Positions 36,902 through 39,962 of a stretch of 64,000 bases of DNA are shown here, one piece after another. Made by a program: the position numbers and the translations under genes. The stretch's first letter is position 1; every line of letters begins with the position of its first letter. The notes under the pieces are model-generated. The model was not told where the DNA came from and searched no databases. It saw only the letters and a program-made list of their open reading frames with translations. The stretch comes from Escherichia phage adrianh: the sequence record MN850614.1. One strand, written 5' to 3'.

Positions 36902-36935
36902 TCCCTTAAAGGGTTCTTACGAGTATCCTTTAAAG
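36902..36935 (+). other. Conserved-loop hairpin (loop TTCTTACGAG), copy 1
   Basis: TTAAAGGG-TTCTTACGAGTA-TCCTTTAA directly after tRNA-Asp. Confidence 0.5.
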
Positions 36936-37304
36936 GAGCAGAAGACCAAATACAGCAAGTTACTTAAAATTTCAAGCCAATTTAATTTTGAAAAATTTAA
37001 AACTTGGTCTGGCTCAACAAATTTACAGAAGACCGTTTACAGCAAAACTTAAACAATCTATTTCTCGGTAAAGAAAAGGCGAAGGTTCGATTCCTTCACT
37101 CGGCAGATGTCGAGTTGGTGTAATGGTAGCACTTAAGATGATAAACAACGGTCTGGTAATTATCTTTGTAGATAAGTTATTAAGCTTACCTGTGAGTATG
37201 CGACCACAAAGGGTGAAAGGGTAAATTCTAGATTTAAACCCAAAAAGGCACATCGCTACAGACCTTAAGCAAGTCTGGGTAGCTTATCTACAAAGATAAT
37301 TTAA

Positions 37305-37380
37305 TGGAAGTGTAGCAGAATGGTGATGCGGCAGACTTTTAATCTGACAGGCGATGGGTTCGAATCCCTCCACTTCTACC
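37305..37380 (+). tRNA. tRNA-Lys (anticodon UUU)
   Basis: Acceptor GGAAGTG/CACTTCT, anticodon loop CTTTTAA, T-loop GGTTCGAATCC; short T-stem. Confidence 0.55.
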
Positions 37381-37384
37381 AATA

Positions 37385-37461
37385 TGGTTCAGTCGCAGAT
37401 AAGGTAATGCAAGGGTCTCATAAGCCCTATGAATGTGGGTTCGAATCCCATCTGAACCTCC
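37385..37461 (+). tRNA. tRNA-Met (anticodon CAU; GGG/CCC in anticodon stem)
   Basis: Acceptor GGTTCAG/CTGAACC, anticodon arm AGGGT CTCATAA GCCCT, T-arm GTGGGTTCGAATCCCAT. Confidence 0.6.
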
Positions 37462-37463
37462 AA

Positions 37464-37538
37464 TTGTGGGTTAGCATAAATGGTAATGCAAACGGCTGAT
37501 AACCGTTAGAAGAGGGTTCGATACCCTCACCTACAACC
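37464..37538 (+). tRNA. tRNA-Ile (anticodon GAU)
   Basis: Acceptor TGTGGGT/ACCTACA, anticodon arm AACGG CTGATAA CCGTT, T-arm GAGGGTTCGATACCCTC. Confidence 0.65.
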
Positions 37539-37553
37539 AAGTTCAATAAAGTT

Positions 37554-37582
37554 GTTGACATTGAGATGTGACTACTTTATAC
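37554..37582 (+). promoter_or_regulatory. Sigma70-like promoter inside the tRNA array
   Basis: TTGACA, 17 nt, TATACT. Confidence 0.6.
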
Positions 37583-37748
37583 TAACCTTAGTTTTCGTTG
37601 CGTAGCGTCTATTTTGCAAATTTAAAATAAATGCAAACGACAATGTTTTTCTGGCAGTAGCTTGATAGGCTAAACACCAGTGAGGTCTTCCAATCCCTCA
37701 TCAAAGAATTTGGCGTACTAGCCCACGGTATGATTAATAAAGTGGGCA

Positions 37749-37779
37749 TCTTTAAGGGCTTTCTAAGAGAGTCTTTAAA
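37749..37779 (+). other. Conserved-loop hairpin family, copy 2 (diverged loop CTTTCTAAGAGAG)
   Basis: CTTTAAGGG..TCTTTAAAG just upstream of tRNA-Arg-like gene. Confidence 0.4.
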
Positions 37780-37786
37780 GATAATT

Positions 37787-37868
37787 ACGGGGCGTATCTC
37801 AGCGGTCTTCTAAACCGCCGTTAACCGAGTAAGTGGAGTATGCGGGTTCGAGTCCTGCCGCCTCGACC
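37787..37868 (+). tRNA. tRNA-Arg-like (anticodon UCU), atypical D region
   Basis: Anticodon arm GCGGT CTTCTAA ACCGC, T-arm GCGGGTTCGAGTCCTGC, acceptor CGGGGCG/CGCCTCG; D-arm not canonical. Confidence 0.4.
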
Positions 37869-38011
37869 AATTTAGTTAGCAGATTGCTTAGACGACCTTA
37901 TCGGGTCTCCGTGTAAGGAGGTGGTCTGTATCTCATGTTTTCCAGAACATGTAAATAATCTGAGAAGGGGCTTTACAGTGTTGCGAAAATACGGTAAGCT
38001 TCGAATTATAG

Positions 38012-38094
38012 TGTGGGACGATGTTAAGACTCTAAGGCATGAGCAACGGCCTCCAAAACCGTTTCAAAGTGGTTCAACTCCTCCGTCCCATGCC
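38012..38094 (+). tRNA. tRNA-Trp-like (anticodon CCA), atypical
   Basis: Acceptor GTGGGAC/GTCCCAT, anticodon loop CTCCAAA, T-loop GGTTCAACTCC; extended D region. Confidence 0.35.
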
Positions 38095-38107
38095 AAAGTC
38101 TTATTAG

Positions 38108-38195
38108 GGGTAGGTAGCGGCTAATGGTAGCCAAACTGTCTTGAAAACAGTTGCCACTGTAGAGATACGGTGAGGGTTCGACTCCTTTACTTACC
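38108..38195 (+). tRNA. tRNA-Ser (anticodon UGA), long variable arm
   Basis: Acceptor GGTAGGT/ACTTACC, anticodon arm ACTGT CTTGAAA ACAGT, long variable arm, T-loop GGTTCGACTCC; CCA not encoded. Confidence 0.55.
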
Positions 38196-38354
38196 GCCTA
38201 ATAAGATTTTAAAGCCAAGCTTCATTCGGATGTTGCTTTGGTATCCCTCGTGTATTGTCGTACACACTAATAAAGCACCTAGTAGGTGTCACGGAGAAGA
38301 GATAATATCAAGCTCTCCAAAGGTTCTAGTCACCGGATTAAACAAGACTATGCA

Positions 38355-38378
38355 AAGACCTTTTTAGGTCTTTTTAGA
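38355..38378 (+). terminator. Rho-independent terminator within tRNA region
   Basis: AGACC TTTTT AGGTCT followed by TTTTT. Confidence 0.5.
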
Positions 38379-38453
38379 GGGCTTCTAAGGTTATTACAGC
38401 TTGTTGTGGAACCTTGTTGCTTAGGTTCTTAGAAGTTCTCTAAAAAGATTTAA

Positions 38454-38538: not shown

Positions 38539-38614
38539 TGCAGGTGTAGCAAAATGGTTATGCGGCTGACTCTTAATCAGTAAGACGATGGGTTCAATTC
38601 CCTCCACCTGTACC
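38539..38614 (+). tRNA. tRNA-Lys (anticodon CUU)
   Basis: Acceptor GCAGGTG/CACCTGT, anticodon loop CTCTTAA, T-loop GGTTCAATTCC; paralogue of UUU tRNA. Confidence 0.55.
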
Positions 38615-38620
38615 AAACAA

Positions 38621-38696
38621 TGGGGTCATAGTTTATATGGTTAAAATTCGAGTTTTGCAAACTTGGGAACTGAGTTCAATTCTCAGTGACTCCACC
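38621..38696 (+). tRNA. tRNA-Ala (anticodon UGC)
   Basis: Acceptor GGGGTCA/TGACTCC, anticodon arm CGAGT TTTGCAA ACTTG, T-arm CTGAGTTCAATTCTCAG. Confidence 0.6.
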
Positions 38697-38702
38697 AATT
38701 AG

Positions 38703-38777
38703 TGCATCCATAGTTTAAACGGGAAAATTACAGTCTTCCAAACTGAGGTTGAGGGTTCGATTCCCTCTGGATGCTCC
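38703..38777 (+). tRNA. tRNA-Gly (anticodon UCC)
   Basis: Acceptor GCATCCA/TGGATGC, anticodon loop CTTCCAA, T-arm GAGGGTTCGATTCCCTC. Confidence 0.65.
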
Positions 38778-38783
38778 AAACAA

Positions 38784-38860
38784 TGCTGCTTTCGTATAAT
38801 TGGCTATTACACATCCCTTGTAAGGATGGAAATGCAGGTTCGAGTCCTGTGAGCAGCACC
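38784..38860 (+). tRNA. tRNA-Thr (anticodon UGU)
   Basis: Acceptor GCTGCTT/GAGCAGC, anticodon arm CATCC CTTGTAA GGATG, T-arm GCAGGTTCGAGTCCTGT. Confidence 0.7.
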
Positions 38861-38955
38861 AATTCAGAGGTCAAGTGAAAGACCGCTGGTGTCAACTGAA
38901 GACCGTAACAAATTCCACGGAGTTGAGTTAGCGGCACAACTTCAGACCTCTTTCA

Positions 38956-39031
38956 CACTCGCTTAGTTTATATGGTAAAACATCACCCTTACAAGATGAA
39001 GAAAAAGGTTCAAGCCCTTTAGTGAGTACCA
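38956..39031 (+). tRNA. tRNA-Val (anticodon UAC)
   Basis: Acceptor ACTCGCT/AGTGAGT, D-arm GTTT..AAAC, anticodon loop CTTACAA, T-loop GGTTCAAGCC. Confidence 0.55.
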
Positions 39032-39032
39032 T

Positions 39033-39110
39033 GTTCCAGTATCCCAATTGGCAGAGGATGCAAGCTCAAACCTTGTACTAGTGACGGTTCGAATCCGTCT
39101 TGGAACACCA
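39033..39110 (+). tRNA. tRNA with CAA anticodon (Leu by anticodon), short variable arm
   Basis: Acceptor GTTCCAG/TTGGAAC, anticodon arm GCAAG CTCAAAC CTTGT, T-arm GACGGTTCGAATCCGTC. Confidence 0.5.
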
Positions 39111-39128
39111 ATTTAAAGAGGCTATTTA

Positions 39129-39686
39129 ATGAGATATTTGAAGTATGCTTCATGGATTTTCTTAGCTTTACTAGACCCAATTGCAGCAACCATAGCAGTT
39201 ATCTTAGCACCTTTCGTAGTTCCATTCTACAGTGAGAAGAAAGGACATCTACCTTTTGGATTCAGATGGATGGAGACCTATGACAACCCGATTGATGGTG
39301 ATAAAGGCCACGTTGAGAGATGGGCTAATATTAGATGGATTGGTAAACTAGGTGTCTACATGCAAAGAGTTGGATGGCTCTGGAGAAACAAAGCTTATAA
39401 CTTCTCTTACCATGTATTAGGAAGAGATGTAAAAGATGTTACTAAGTGGAAAGGTAATATCAACGTAAGTTCTAACCCTGAAGATAATCAGACTGGTTAT
39501 CTCCTAATGTGGAACAGGAATGCTTGGGGATTATTCGCTTTTATCCCATCAATTAAAATCTTTGGTAAACAATTTTACTGGAGAATTTATATTGGATGGA
39601 AACTAAAAAGTGTTGTCCCAGAAGAAAGAGCATTCTCAAGGGAAAGAGTTATGTTGGCATTCTTTATTCATCCACTGAGAAAGTAA
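39129..39686 (+). CDS. Hypothetical Trp-rich membrane protein embedded in tRNA array
   Basis: 185 aa; AAAGAGG RBS; hydrophobic N-terminal segment; flanked by tRNA genes. Confidence 0.45.
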   Translation: MRYLKYASWIFLALLDPIAATIAVILAPFVVPFYSEKKGHLPFGFRWMETYDNPIDGDKGHVERWANIRWIGKLGVYMQRVGWLWRNKAYNFSYHVLGRDVKDVTKWKGNINVSSNPEDNQTGYLLMWNRNAWGLFAFIPSIKIFGKQFYWRIYIGWKLKSVVPEERAFSRERVMLAFFIHPLRK

Positions 39687-39694
39687 AGATTTAA

Positions 39695-39770
39695 AGGGGA
39701 TTAGTTTACAAGGTTAAAACCTCGGTCTTTGAAATCGAAGAAGTTGGTTCAATTCCAACATCCCCCGCCA
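39695..39770 (+). tRNA. tRNA-Gln (anticodon UUG)
   Basis: Acceptor AGGGGAT/ATCCCCC with 1:72 mismatch, anticodon arm TCGGT CTTTGAA ATCGA, T-arm GTTGGTTCAATTCCAAC. Confidence 0.6.
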
Positions 39771-39772
39771 AT

Positions 39773-39851
39773 GCTCCATTACTCCAATTGGCAGAGAGGC
39801 CAGACTTAAAATCTGTGTTATGTATCGGTTCGAATCCGATATGGAGTACCA
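39773..39851 (+). tRNA. tRNA with UAA anticodon (Leu by anticodon)
   Basis: Acceptor GCTCCAT/ATGGAGT, anticodon loop CTTAAAA, 7 nt variable region, T-arm ATCGGTTCGAATCCGAT. Confidence 0.5.
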
Positions 39852-39856
39852 AATTT

Positions 39857-39932
39857 AGCGGTATAGCATAACTGGCAATGCAGCAGTCTCTGAAGCTGTC
39901 TTATTAAGGTTCAAATCCTTATGCCGCTGCCA
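39857..39932 (+). tRNA. tRNA-Gln (anticodon CUG)
   Basis: Acceptor AGCGGTA/TGCCGCT, anticodon arm GCAGT CTCTGAA GCTGT, T-arm TAAGGTTCAAATCCTTA. Confidence 0.55.
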
Positions 39933-39962
39933 CTTCTAAGGATTCTTACGAGAGTCCTTAAA
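39933..39962 (+). other. Conserved-loop hairpin (loop TTCTTACGAG), copy 3
   Basis: TAAGGA-TTCTTACGAGAG-TCCTTA; same loop as copy 1 with a different stem. Confidence 0.5.

What the first reader, a model, noticed from the sequence alone, without database searches (positions are those of the whole stretch)
36902..39962. Hairpin family with conserved loop TTCTTACGAG and co-varying stems next to tRNA genes
Copies at 36902-36935 and 39933-39962 share the loop TTCTTACGAG(T/A) while their stems differ but stay complementary (TTAAAGG/CCTTTAA versus TAAGGA/TCCTTA); a diverged third copy lies at 37749-37779. Loop conservation with stem covariation is the signature of a functional RNA hairpin. Each sits immediately 3' of a tRNA or 5' of the next one, consistent with a processing signal, attenuator or protein-binding hairpin in the tRNA precursor.
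Basis: seen in the sequence. Interest (0 to 1): 0.55.

Follow-up and report, generated by a model that had tools for sequence, protein, structure and literature searches.

The report
Conserved phage RNA hairpin beside tRNAs
The three hairpins are real copies of a sense-strand RNA stem-loop that sits just upstream of tRNA genes or at the ends of non-coding RNAs and genes in at least four, probably five, unrelated groups of virulent enterobacterial phages, and it most likely marks where the long tRNA-cluster transcript is cut and its pieces are stabilised.

Summary
The window is a Felix O1-like phage (Felixounavirus), and the finding lies in its 25-gene tRNA cluster. All three hairpins exist at the stated places. 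The "conserved loop" TTCTTACGAG is mostly paired. The true structure is a 16-18 bp stem capped by a UACG tetraloop.

A covariance model finds only these three copies in 64 kb, all on the + strand. Stem changes in orthologues and across phage lineages keep the pairing. Upper-stem G:U pairs outnumber A.C mismatches 33 to 1, so the sense RNA is what is selected.

The same element occurs in other phage groups:
- T5-like phages, where it forms the last 40 nt of the annotated stable RNA "RNAX", 4-5 nt before tRNA-Arg.
- phiEco32-like phages and a Grimontviridae phage, just after stop codons.
- Erwinia Kolesnikvirus, 1 nt before a tRNA.
- T4, in diverged form, 8 nt before tRNA-Gln.

It is absent from E. 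coli genomes and from Rfam. None of the copies has a U-tract.

Best reading: a non-terminating processing and stability hairpin. RNase P and/or RNase III would cut beside it, leaving a hairpin-protected RNA end. This function is inferred, not shown.

Interest is moderate: an undescribed RNA motif of a known kind.

The parts
36900..36939 (+). hp1: family hairpin, 17-position stem (15 pairs, two internal mismatches) and UACG tetraloop. It lies 23 nt after tRNA-Asp and ahead of tRNA-like non-coding modules.
   Evidence: 61.3 bits; this copy was in the seed alignment. Orthologues show G:C, G:U and A:U at one pair, plus one A.C intermediate in Felix O1 itself.
36887..36900 (+). Small G+C hairpin GGGCUAUUUAGCCC directly upstream of hp1.
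   Evidence: Minimum-free-energy fold of 36878-37305. The sequence is conserved in orthologues.
39929..39968 (+). hp2: family hairpin filling the whole 31-nt spacer between tRNA-Gln(CUG) and tRNA-His. A 10-bp upper stem with UACG loop is followed by a 3x3 internal loop. The 5-bp lower stem is made from the CCA end of tRNA-Gln and the 5' end of tRNA-His.
   Evidence: -20.8 kcal/mol, z -6.0; 62.3 bits; this copy was in the seed alignment. One relative has both lower mismatches repaired, giving a longer, nearly continuous stem. The same spacer is annotated as 'terminator' in phage Michonne.
37748..37782 (+). hp3: diverged family copy with a 16-bp stem rich in G:U pairs and a 3-nt loop. It is the 3'-terminal stem-loop of the non-coding RNA that starts at the 37555 promoter, and it lies 5 nt before the tRNA-Arg(UCU)-like gene.
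   Evidence: + strand -17.6 versus - strand -6.3 kcal/mol; 22.0 bits, E 7e-4; not in the seed. The Kolesnikvirus orthologue carries the canonical UUCUUACGAGAG tip.
38369..38448 (+). hp4: long hairpin whose arms resemble hp3, with about 40 nt inserted at the tip. It is a probable derived member and ends 6 nt before tRNA-Leu(UAG).
   Evidence: -40.8 kcal/mol. In the orthologue alignment A2, none of 21 pairs is broken, 9 vary only through single-sided (mostly wobble) changes and 1 is compensatory. The family model did not detect it.
37555..37583 (+). Sigma-70-like promoter TTGACA-17-TATACT that would start the non-coding RNA ending in hp3.
   Evidence: 11 of 12 consensus matches. A promoter-like TTGACA...TAATCT sits at the same place in Erwinia phage Panisse. 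A consensus match is not evidence of function.
37590..37787 (+). Non-coding RNA segment between the promoter and the tRNA-Arg-like gene. hp3 is its last structural element.
   Evidence: 80% identity over 135 nt to Kolesnikvirus, with conserved internal hairpins. The start coordinate is inferred from the promoter.
37788..37866 (+). tRNA-Arg(UCU)-like gene immediately 3' of hp3. Its 5' end is the presumed RNase P site.
   Evidence: Rfam tRNA hit, 31.7 bits. ARAGORN did not call it. T5 and Sf18 also have a tRNA-Arg(UCU) right after the hairpin.
39964..40039 (+). tRNA-His, 3 nt after the upper stem of hp2.
38455..38532 (+). tRNA-Leu(UAG), directly after hp4.

Best explanation
These are copies of a sense-strand RNA stem-loop carried inside the long tRNA-cluster transcript. 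Each has 16-18 bp including G:U pairs and is usually capped by a UNCG tetraloop.

The hairpin does not stop transcription. It acts as punctuation for RNA processing and stability. It sits 0-8 nt upstream of a tRNA 5' end, or just after a non-coding RNA or an ORF.

Inferred steps:
- An endonuclease cuts beside or within it. The candidates are RNase P at the tRNA 5' end and/or host RNase III in the stem.
- This releases the downstream tRNA.
- The neighbouring RNA is left with a terminal hairpin that resists exonucleases.

Shown here: the structure, the strand, the conservation and the placement. Not shown: which nuclease cuts, and any stabilising effect.
For: 1. RNA-level selection on the sense strand.
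- 90.5% of cells are paired, against 78.5% in shuffles and 41-60% in slid controls. Eight of 17 pairs change on both sides.
- In the upper stem, G:U pairs outnumber A.C mismatches 33 to 1.
- Sense-strand model scores are 50-64 bits for the canonical-tip copies, which were the seed sequences or their orthologues, against 17-30 bits antisense.
- hp3 folds at -17.6 kcal/mol on the + strand and only -6.3 on the - strand.

2. One T5-like phage has UUCG in place of UACG, which points to selection for a UNCG-type loop.

3. No copy has a U-tract, and the terminator scan did not flag them. The cluster's promoters and its terminator lie outside them.

4. Placement.
- hp3 is 5 nt, hp2 3 nt and hp4 6 nt before a tRNA.
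- The Panisse copy is 1 nt before tRNA-Leu.
- The T5 copy is 5 nt before tRNA-Arg. It forms the last 40 nt of the annotated 'stable RNA' RNAX.
- In Kuravirus and Grimontviridae it follows a stop codon by 1-12 nt.

5. T4 has a closely similar stem (AAGGGUUCU/AGAGCCUUU, 11 bp) 8 nt before tRNA-Gln, the first tRNA of its cluster. A review states that E. coli RNase III takes part in T4 tRNA maturation (PMC4810235). That the RNase III-dependent step concerns tRNA-Gln is my recollection of McClain 1979 and of Pragai and Apirion 1981. I did not check it here.

6. The size, 36-40 nt, matches the 34-nt minimal E. coli RNase III substrate (PMC1540722).

7. At least positions -1 to -4 of a tRNA leader should be unpaired for good RNase P cleavage (PMC7897497). 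Spacers of 3-6 nt satisfy this roughly.
Against: - No cleavage or RNA-end data exist for any of these phages in what I could search.
- The RNAX end in the T5 record may have been set by the tRNA boundary rather than mapped.
- hp1 and hp2 follow tRNAs rather than non-tRNA RNAs. There the hairpin would shield a tRNA 3' trailer that has to be removed.
- A pure stability element does not need the invariant blocks that are seen (AAG...U.UU.CGAG...CUU, and a U-A rather than C-G closing pair).
- Spacers of 0-1 nt (KookSpook, Panisse) would be expected to hinder RNase P.
- The T4 hairpin scores only 10.2 bits (E 0.22) with the family model. Its relationship rests on the identical 9-10 nt 5' arm.
Confidence: 0.5

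Rival explanations
1. The hairpin tip is a specific binding site, or a decoy, for a host or phage protein. One example would be a small excised hairpin RNA, such as the 31-nt hp2 spacer, that titrates a host nuclease or defence factor. Processing would only serve to release it.
For: - The same 22 nt (AAGGATTCTTACGAGAGTCCTT) is identical in Felix O1-like and phiEco32-like phages, which share nothing else around it.
- Invariant columns fall in two blocks separated by three covarying pairs.
- The closing pair is always U-A, not the C-G that would maximise UNCG stability.
- The element is absent from 5,426 E. coli genomes and at chance level in 596 Gb of bacterial genomes.
Against: - The loop can be UUCG, a 3-nt loop in hp3, or GUUA in T4, so the loop sequence is not strictly needed.
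- hp3 is replaced by an unrelated longer hairpin at the same place in Felix O1 itself and in Suspvirus. This suggests that structure at that position matters more than sequence.
- No candidate protein was identified.
Confidence: 0.15
2. The hairpin is a brake or timer on RNase P. By structuring the 5' leader next to the cleavage site, it slows maturation of particular tRNAs (Arg-UCU, His, Leu).
For: Structured leaders lower RNase P binding and cleavage, and positions -1 to -4 should be unpaired (PMC7897497). Spacers here are only 0-6 nt. The predicted lower stems of hp2 and the T5 copy, and a weaker 3-bp pairing in T4, involve the first nucleotides of the downstream tRNA.
Against: Copies in Kuravirus, Grimontviridae and several T5-like phages have no tRNA directly downstream. 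hp1 has none either. The 3-5 bp lower stems could be chance pairings.
Confidence: 0.1
3. The hairpin has no function of its own. It is a sequence that hitch-hikes with tRNA and homing-endonuclease cassettes exchanged between co-infecting phages.
For: - Cassettes differ immediately downstream of hp3 and hp4 between close relatives.
- ORFs are inserted between the hairpin and tRNA-Arg in Epseptimavirus. One has a T5orf172/GIY-YIG-like domain.
- An HNH endonuclease gene follows hp4 in Michonne.
- Only the hairpin is shared between T5 RNAX and the window.
Against: A neutral passenger would not keep its pairing through compensatory and wobble changes in every lineage, nor show the 33:1 G:U bias.
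Confidence: 0.1
4. It is an intrinsic terminator or attenuator inside the tRNA cluster, as hp2 is annotated in phage Michonne.
For: The stem is stable and G+C-containing. The Michonne record labels it 'terminator'. Two unrelated contigs use the same tip in textbook terminators with T-runs (L050, L158).
Against: hp1, hp2, hp3 and the T5, Kuravirus and T4 copies are not followed by a T-run. The scan does not call them. Functional tRNA genes follow within a few nucleotides. No alternative anti-terminator pairing was found.
Confidence: 0.05
5. It is a DNA-level palindrome: a binding site for a dimeric protein, a recombination or homing site, or a cruciform.
For: It is an inverted repeat next to the boundaries of variable cassettes. 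There is some similarity to the TTGTTAAGA-type direct repeats in the 25.1-26.6 kb non-coding region.
Against: - The loop is asymmetric (TACG).
- Many pairs are G:T, which would be A.C mismatches on the other strand and mismatches in a DNA cruciform.
- The orientation follows local transcription in all five lineages.
- The model scores the - strand far lower.
Confidence: 0.04

Closest known systems
3'-terminal stem-loop of phage T5 'RNAX' (rnaX, T5s08: stable RNA of unknown function, NC_005859 40848-41566)
   Same: It is the same element. The family model scores it at 59 bits (T5 was in the seed alignment). It has the same UACG tip, the same sense orientation and the same placement 4-5 nt upstream of a tRNA-Arg(UCU).
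   Different: The rest of RNAX (about 680 nt) has no detectable similarity to the window. T5 has one copy and the window has three or four. The hairpin itself is not annotated or described in the T5 record.
Hairpin 5' of tRNA-Gln at the start of the phage T4 tRNA cluster, and RNase III-dependent T4 tRNA maturation
   Same: The 5' arm AAGGGUUCU(U) is identical and the stem is near-identical. It lies on the sense strand 8 nt before a tRNA, and it is conserved in 517 T4-like records. RNase III is reported to take part in T4 tRNA maturation (PMC4810235).
   Different: The loop is GUUA and the stem only 11 bp. The family model gives 10.2 bits, E 0.22. That RNase III acts at this particular hairpin is my recollection of the 1979-1981 literature, not a result obtained here.
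C(UUCG)G-type extra-stable hairpins in T4 intercistronic regions (Tuerk et al. 1988, from memory)
   Same: UNCG tetraloop (UACG, once UUCG) on a phage intergenic RNA hairpin that does not terminate transcription.
   Different: The closing pair is always U-A, not C-G. The stem is much longer and its sequence is conserved across lineages. hp3 and the T4 copy lack a UNCG loop.
Phage T7 early-region RNase III sites (R1.1 and others)
   Same: An irregular hairpin of similar size between units of a polycistronic phage transcript. hp2 has the layout of upper stem, internal loop and lower stem. The size is close to the 34-nt minimal substrate.
   Different: There is no sequence similarity, and the proximal and distal box determinants were not evaluated. 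No cleavage data exist.
Rho-independent terminators
   Same: A stable stem-loop. hp2 is annotated as one in phage Michonne.
   Different: There is no U-tract, and the hairpins lie inside an operon immediately before functional tRNA genes.
MALAT1/mascRNA logic in mammals (RNase P cuts at a tRNA-like structure and the upstream RNA keeps a protective 3' structure; from memory)
   Same: It works like this under the proposed model. A tRNA 5' end defines the 3' end of the upstream RNA, which ends in a protective structure.
   Different: The system is unrelated, the protection there is a triple helix rather than a hairpin, and it is an analogy only.

Membership tests
Rho-independent terminator / attenuator | Stem-loop followed directly by a run of U | tested here: not met
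   The sequences after hp1 (GCAGAAG), hp2 (AAATGTGG) and hp3 (AATTACGG) have no T-run. None of them was called by the terminator scan.
Rho-independent terminator / attenuator | Alternative (anti-terminator) pairing or a position at the end of an operon | tested here: not met
   The hairpins lie inside the cluster, with tRNA genes 3-6 nt downstream. The cluster's terminator-like site is at 41209-41226. The folds show no competing structure.
UNCG extra-stable tetraloop hairpins | Four-base loop of the form UNCG | tested here: met
   UACG in hp1, hp2 and the T5, Kuravirus, Grimontviridae and Kolesnikvirus copies. UUCG in phage oselot. Not met by hp3 (3-nt loop) or T4 (GUUA).
UNCG extra-stable tetraloop hairpins | C-G closing pair | tested here: not met
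   The closing pair is U:A in all 21 aligned sequences (columns 18:23).
E. coli RNase III processing site | Double-helical stem at least the size of the minimal substrate (34 nt, roughly 15 bp plus loop) | tested here: met
   hp1-hp3 and the T5 copy are 35-40 nt with 16-18 stem positions. The minimal substrate size is from PMC1540722. The T4 relative has only 11 bp.
E. coli RNase III processing site | Suitable proximal and distal box base pairs, with no antideterminant pairs | not tested
   The cleavage position is unknown, so the boxes cannot be placed. I found only the general rule.
E. coli RNase III processing site | rnc-dependent cleavage in vivo or in vitro | not testable with these tools
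   I found no transcript-end data for Felix O1-like phages.
T5 RNAX terminal hairpin family (the family proposed here) | Significant match to a structure-plus-sequence model on the transcribed strand | tested here: met
   hp2 62.3 bits, hp1 61.3, hp3 22.0 (E 7e-4) and T5 59.0. Antisense scores are much lower. hp1, hp2 and T5 were in the seed alignment. hp3 and the Panisse copy (28.6 bits) were not.
T5 RNAX terminal hairpin family (the family proposed here) | Pairing kept by compensatory or wobble changes | tested here: met
Any curated Rfam family | Match reaching the family's gathering score | tested here: not met
   hp2 (39918-39979) and hp4 (38360-38459) draw only chance-level microRNA-precursor matches far below gathering score. 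hp1 and hp3 match nothing.
Dispersed mobile palindromes (REP/MITE-like) | Many copies scattered over the genome in both orientations | tested here: not met
   Only three model hits in 64 kb, all on the + strand and all inside the tRNA cluster. No match in E. coli genomes.

The most novel reading that the evidence does not exclude
The conserved tip (AAG..UUCU-UNCG-AGAG..CUU with an invariant U-A closing pair) is a sequence-specific recognition element, not just a stable stem. At least four, probably five, unrelated lineages of virulent enterobacterial phages would then keep or exchange it because a particular host factor reads it. In that case the excised hairpins would be small functional RNAs. 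The 31-nt hp2, released between two tRNAs, is one example. They might act as a decoy for a host nuclease or defence system, or as an entry site that recruits a host RNase to phage transcripts.
Probability: 0.12. Interest if true: 0.75.

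Novelty: new member of a known kind. Interest (0 to 1): 0.45.

Why it matters
Phage tRNA clusters are attracting interest again as counter-measures to host tRNA-cleaving defences. How their long transcripts are cut into working tRNAs and stable small RNAs is known mainly from T4 work of the 1970s and 1980s.

A single hairpin motif shared by Felix O1-, T5-, phiEco32- and, in diverged form, T4-like phages gives a concrete and easily mutated handle on that processing. It also bears on the unexplained "stable RNAs" of T5. It would merit an Rfam entry and would correct records in which it is annotated as a terminator.

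If the conserved tip proves to be read by a specific factor, it would point to a shared host dependency of many therapeutic coliphages and Salmonella phages.

Tried and rejected
- A loose pattern scan of IMG/VR (GGNTTCTTACGAGNNNCC) returned mostly chance matches inside coding genes. It was useful only because it exposed the Kuravirus copies. A stricter pattern found only Ounavirinae and Kuravirus contigs.
- Rfam has nothing for the hairpins.
- Mimic of the 23S sarcin-ricin loop (shared UACGAGAG): rejected. The alternative C-GAGA-G fold has only 2 bp, the 3' GA of the bulged-G motif is missing, and hp1 lacks GAGA.
- Anticodon-arm or T-arm mimic: rejected, because no 7-nt loop register pairs.
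- Similarity to the TTGTTAAGA/CTTGTTAG direct repeats at 25.1-26.6 kb suggested a DNA-binding site. I set this aside because of the strand asymmetry of G:U pairs.
- The exact 10-mer at 50878 (- strand) lies in non-palindromic sequence and is a chance copy.
- Homing-endonuclease insertion sites in Felix O1 do not coincide with hp1 or hp2.
- I looked for a tRNA-like partner for the tmRNA-tag-like RNA by duplex folding. The results did not differ from shuffles.
- I searched T5 and T4 tRNA-region loci (L175, L184-L186) and Wc4-1, NJ01 and PKM loci for the same tag-like frame and found none.
- No YrlA or Y RNA match in Rfam for the permuted tRNA-like module.
- Literature searches found no transcriptome or end-mapping data for Felix O1-like phages, and nothing on this hairpin.

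Full report
**Source and setting.** The window is a Felix O1-like myovirus. It is 97-98% identical to several Felixounavirus genomes over the 5 kb around the finding. The finding lies in the phage's tRNA cluster, 36148-41046 on the + strand. ARAGORN tRNAs, and Rfam adds a weak tRNA at 37788-37866. Sigma-70-like promoters lie at 36001-36029, 36092-36121 and 37555-37583. A terminator-like site follows the cluster at 41209-41226. The gene upstream of the cluster (34566-35981) carries DUF2828 and DUF7788 and is annotated "RNA-binding protein" in relatives.

Inverted repeats are present at 36901-36938 (hp1), 39929-39968 (hp2) and 37748-37782 (hp3). The 10-mer TTCTTACGAG is exact in hp1 and hp2. A third exact copy at 50878 on the - strand lies in non-palindromic sequence and is a chance copy.

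- First correction: the "loop" is mostly stem. RNA folding gives 16-18 bp capped by the tetraloop UACG in hp1 and hp2, and a 3-nt loop in hp3. Energies are -15.1, -20.8 and -17.6 kcal/mol, with z-scores of -2.5, -6.0 and -5.4.
- Second correction: hp1 and hp2 share most of the upper stem once aligned on the loop, so these two copies alone show little covariation.

A fourth, longer hairpin (38369-38448, -40.8 kcal/mol) has arms like those of hp3 and is probably a derived copy.

**It is a selected RNA structure on the transcribed strand.** I collected orthologous regions from about 40 Felixounavirus, Mooglevirus and Suspvirus genomes and contigs.

- In hp1, one pair runs through G:C, G:U and A:U, with a single A.C intermediate in Felix O1 itself. 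Two other changes repair or keep pairs.
- In hp2, one relative has both lower-stem mismatches repaired, giving a longer, nearly continuous stem.
- In hp3, the changes are C:G to U:G and G:U to G:C.
- In hp4, none of 21 pairs is ever broken. Nine vary only through single-sided (mostly wobble) changes and one is a U:A to G:C compensation.

A 21-sequence alignment across phage lineages is 90.5% paired. Shuffles give 78.5% (0 of 500 reach the observed value) and slid controls give 41-60%. Eight of 17 pairs change on both sides. In the upper stem there are 33 G:U pairs and one A.C mismatch. On the opposite strand those G:U pairs would be mismatches, and hp3 folds at only -6.3 kcal/mol there.

A covariance model built from this alignment finds only hp2, hp1 and hp3 in the whole window (62.3, 61.3 and 22.0 bits), all on the + strand. 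hp1 and hp2 were in the seed, so the hp3 hit is the independent one.

**The family reaches well beyond this phage.**

- The 22-nt tip of hp2 is identical in about 100 phiEco32-like podoviruses (Kuravirus). There it lies in a 320-nt intergenic region starting 1-12 nt after a stop codon.
- A close variant sits 8 nt after a stop codon in a Grimontviridae Salmonella phage.
- More than 500 T5-like genomes carry it. In T5 it is GUAUUUUUAAGAGUUUU-UACG-AGAGUUCUUAAAAAUAC, 5 nt upstream of tRNA-Arg(UCU).
- T5-like variants show compensatory changes, and one has UUCG in place of UACG, so the loop is of the UNCG type.
- In Erwinia phage Panisse (Kolesnikvirus) the model finds a copy with the canonical tip 1 nt before tRNA-Leu (28.6 bits).
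- In all these lineages the hairpin reads in the sense of the surrounding genes.
- There is no match in 5,426 E. coli genomes. A scan of 596 Gb of bacterial genomes gave three hits, which is about the number I expect by chance. One of these, and one IMG/VR hit, use the same tip in ordinary terminators with a T-run. Part of the resemblance could therefore be convergent.
- Rfam has no family for it.

**Two links to described systems.** The T5 reference record annotates a "stable RNA with unknown functions", RNAX (40848-41566), between promoter P16-17 and tRNA-Arg (40773-40847). The hairpin occupies 40852-40891. That is the last 40 nt of RNAX, ending 4 nt before its annotated 3' end. T5 has seven more annotated stable RNAs among its tRNA genes. 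One of them, RNAIII, directly abuts tRNA-His, and its two ends are complementary.

Phage T4 has the hairpin CAAGGGUUCUU-GUUA-GAGAGCCUUUG 8 nt upstream of tRNA-Gln, the first tRNA of its cluster. Its 5' arm is identical to that of hp2 and the Grimontviridae copy, and its stem differs by one wobble. It is conserved in 517 T4-like records. The family model scores it poorly (10.2 bits, E 0.22) because the loop differs, so I treat the relationship as probable rather than proven. A review states that E. coli RNase III takes part in T4 tRNA maturation (PMC4810235). I recall that the affected tRNA is tRNA-Gln and that the cut lies a few nucleotides upstream of it (McClain 1979; Pragai and Apirion 1981), but I could not check this here.

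**Anatomy in the window.**

- hp3 closes a non-coding RNA that would start at the 37555 promoter and end at the tRNA-Arg(UCU)-like gene 5 nt after the hairpin. This RNA is conserved as far as Kolesnikvirus, with 80% identity over 135 nt and compensatory changes in internal hairpins.
- In Felix O1 itself and in Suspvirus, hp3 is replaced at the same position by an unrelated longer hairpin. A hairpin at that place is therefore what is kept.
- hp4 ends 6 nt before tRNA-Leu(UAG). Its 5' base is the U-tract of a small terminator-like hairpin at 38354-38375.
- hp2 fills the spacer between tRNA-Gln and tRNA-His. Its upper stem ends 3 nt before tRNA-His.
- hp1 lies 23 nt after tRNA-Asp and before a 370-nt stretch of structured, tRNA-like modules.

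**Most likely mechanism.** None of the hairpins has a U-tract and tRNA genes follow at once, so they do not terminate transcription. Their constant position at the junction between a non-tRNA segment and a tRNA, or at the end of an ORF, fits a punctuation element. So does the fact that the T5 copy closes a stable RNA. An endonuclease cuts next to or within the hairpin, and the neighbouring RNA keeps a terminal stem-loop that blocks exonucleases.

RNase P at the tRNA 5' end is one candidate. The 3-6 nt A/U spacers roughly satisfy the need for unpaired positions -1 to -4 (PMC7897497). RNase III is the other candidate. The size matches the 34-nt minimal substrate (PMC1540722), and the T4 relative sits where RNase III-dependent processing is reported. 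I put 0.5 on this processing/stability reading as a whole, and I cannot say which nuclease acts.

**What argues against it, and the rivals.**

- The invariant blocks and the U-A closing pair go beyond what stability requires. They keep open a specific protein-binding or decoy role (0.15).
- Very short spacers, and lower stems that include the first tRNA nucleotides, suggest a brake on RNase P (0.1).
- Variable cassettes and nuclease-like ORFs inserted right after the hairpin suggest hitch-hiking with mobile cassettes (0.1). The maintained pairing argues against pure neutrality.
- A terminator or attenuator (0.05) and a DNA-level palindrome (0.04) are disfavoured by the missing U-tract and by the strand asymmetry.

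**Novelty and value.** The element is an undescribed, widely distributed RNA motif of a familiar kind: phage intergenic processing and stability hairpins. It ties together T5 RNAX, the T4 tRNA-Gln leader and the Felix O1 tRNA cluster, and it corrects a "terminator" annotation. Without end-mapping or nuclease data the function remains inferred.

**Limits.**

- The covariance model was trained on hp1, hp2 and their relatives, so their high scores are partly circular. hp3 and the Panisse copy were not in the seed.
- E-values from the model are rough.
- Sequences are related by descent, so cell counts overstate the number of independent events.
- The T5 RNAX boundary may be an annotation convention.
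- The statements about T4 RNase III cleavage rest partly on memory.

Noticed in passing
window 37590-37787, reading frame at 37633-37668: The non-coding RNA that ends in hp3 contains GCAAACGACAATGTTTTTCTGGCAGTAGCTTGATAG, which reads ANDNVFLAVA followed by two stops. It has no start codon and resembles a tmRNA tag in a resume-codon context. Rfam gives weak tmRNA hits here (E 0.002-0.004, below gathering score).

Across Ounavirinae the changes are synonymous third positions (AAC/AAT, GAC/GAT, GTA/GTG, GCT/GCG), stop-to-stop (TGA/TAA), or replacements in the middle of the frame (ANDAQFLAVA in Erwinia phage Panisse). No tRNA-like partner domain was identified, and ARAGORN calls no tmRNA.
   Followed up: partly
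window 37788-37866: An odd tRNA-Arg(UCU)-like gene that Rfam scores at 31.7 bits and ARAGORN misses. It has almost no D-arm and a long extra region. With position 1 at C37788, my manual pairing gives G3:U70, and an A precedes the CCA. Its acceptor and T-arm resemble T5 tRNA-Arg(UCU). Other Felix O1-like phages carry an ordinary tRNA-Arg(UCU) starting GCACCCTTAGTTCAA at the same place after hp3; I recall this resembling E. coli argU.
   Followed up: partly
window 37029-37154; gene 34566-35981: A circularly permuted tRNA-like domain: T-arm, acceptor 3' strand, a short loop, acceptor 5' strand and a D-arm-like segment. It is closed by the 8-bp stem AGACCGUU/AACGGUCU and is recovered by the minimum-free-energy fold. 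The layout recalls bacterial YrlA Y RNAs. The cluster lies next to a DUF2828/DUF7788 gene that relatives annotate as RNA-binding, but Rfam gives no Y RNA match.
   Followed up: partly
window 37158-37303: A 19-bp stem (AAUUAUCUUUGUAGAUAAG / CUUAUCUACAAAGAUAAUU) encloses about 110 nt of branched structure directly before tRNA-Lys. It looks like another stable RNA module.
   Followed up: no
window 36929-36949 and 37024-37044; 36543-36555 and 37150-37162: Two short direct repeats lie in the non-coding parts of the cluster. CAGAAGACC(A/G)..TACAGCAA occurs twice, and ACGGTCTGGTAAT occurs twice. The latter contains GGUCUGG, which is reminiscent of the GGUCCGA motif of Y RNAs.
   Followed up: no
window 38013-38095: A degenerate tRNA-like sequence with a 7-bp acceptor stem (GUGGGAC/GUCCCAU), a GCCA end and a weak T-arm. 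Neither ARAGORN nor Rfam calls it.
   Followed up: no
window 38354-38375: A terminator-like hairpin AAAGACCUUUUUAGGUCUUUUU whose U-tract also forms the 5' base of the long hairpin hp4. The two structures share sequence.
   Followed up: partly
window 25100-26620: About 1.5 kb without ORFs of 50 aa or more, packed with same-orientation repeats of the type CTTGTTAG, CTGTTAAG and TTGTTAAGA. It may be an origin or a regulatory region.
   Followed up: no
window 21041-24324, - strand: Five near-identical hairpins, TTGTTTAGTGGGGAGGCTATTACCTCCCGTTGATTAG, at 21041, 21906, 23127, 23691 and 24288. They are probably repeated intergenic signals of the leftward gene block.
   Followed up: no
L155 1252-1761, L176 and L177 759-1268, L182 751-1317, L124 2881-3333: In several T5-like phages an ORF is inserted exactly between the family hairpin and tRNA-Arg(UCU). 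The ORF in phage SP1a has a T5orf172/MUG113 (GIY-YIG-like) domain. In phage Michonne an HNH endonuclease gene is inserted right after hp4. The hairpin-tRNA junction seems to be a favoured insertion point.
   Followed up: partly
L125 4249-4416 (Erwinia phage Panisse): A 168-nt tRNA-like RNA starts GGGUGAUUCUGCAACGG, which I recall resembling the 5' end of E. coli tmRNA. It has a long helix in place of the anticodon arm, a T-arm and a CACUCGCCA end. It sits directly upstream of the tag-like RNA.
   Followed up: partly
window 39963-39964; L185 about 6284 (T5): tRNA-His has a U, not a G, at position -1 in both this phage and T5. The extra 5' G that I recall E. coli tRNA-His carrying is therefore not encoded.
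   Followed up: no
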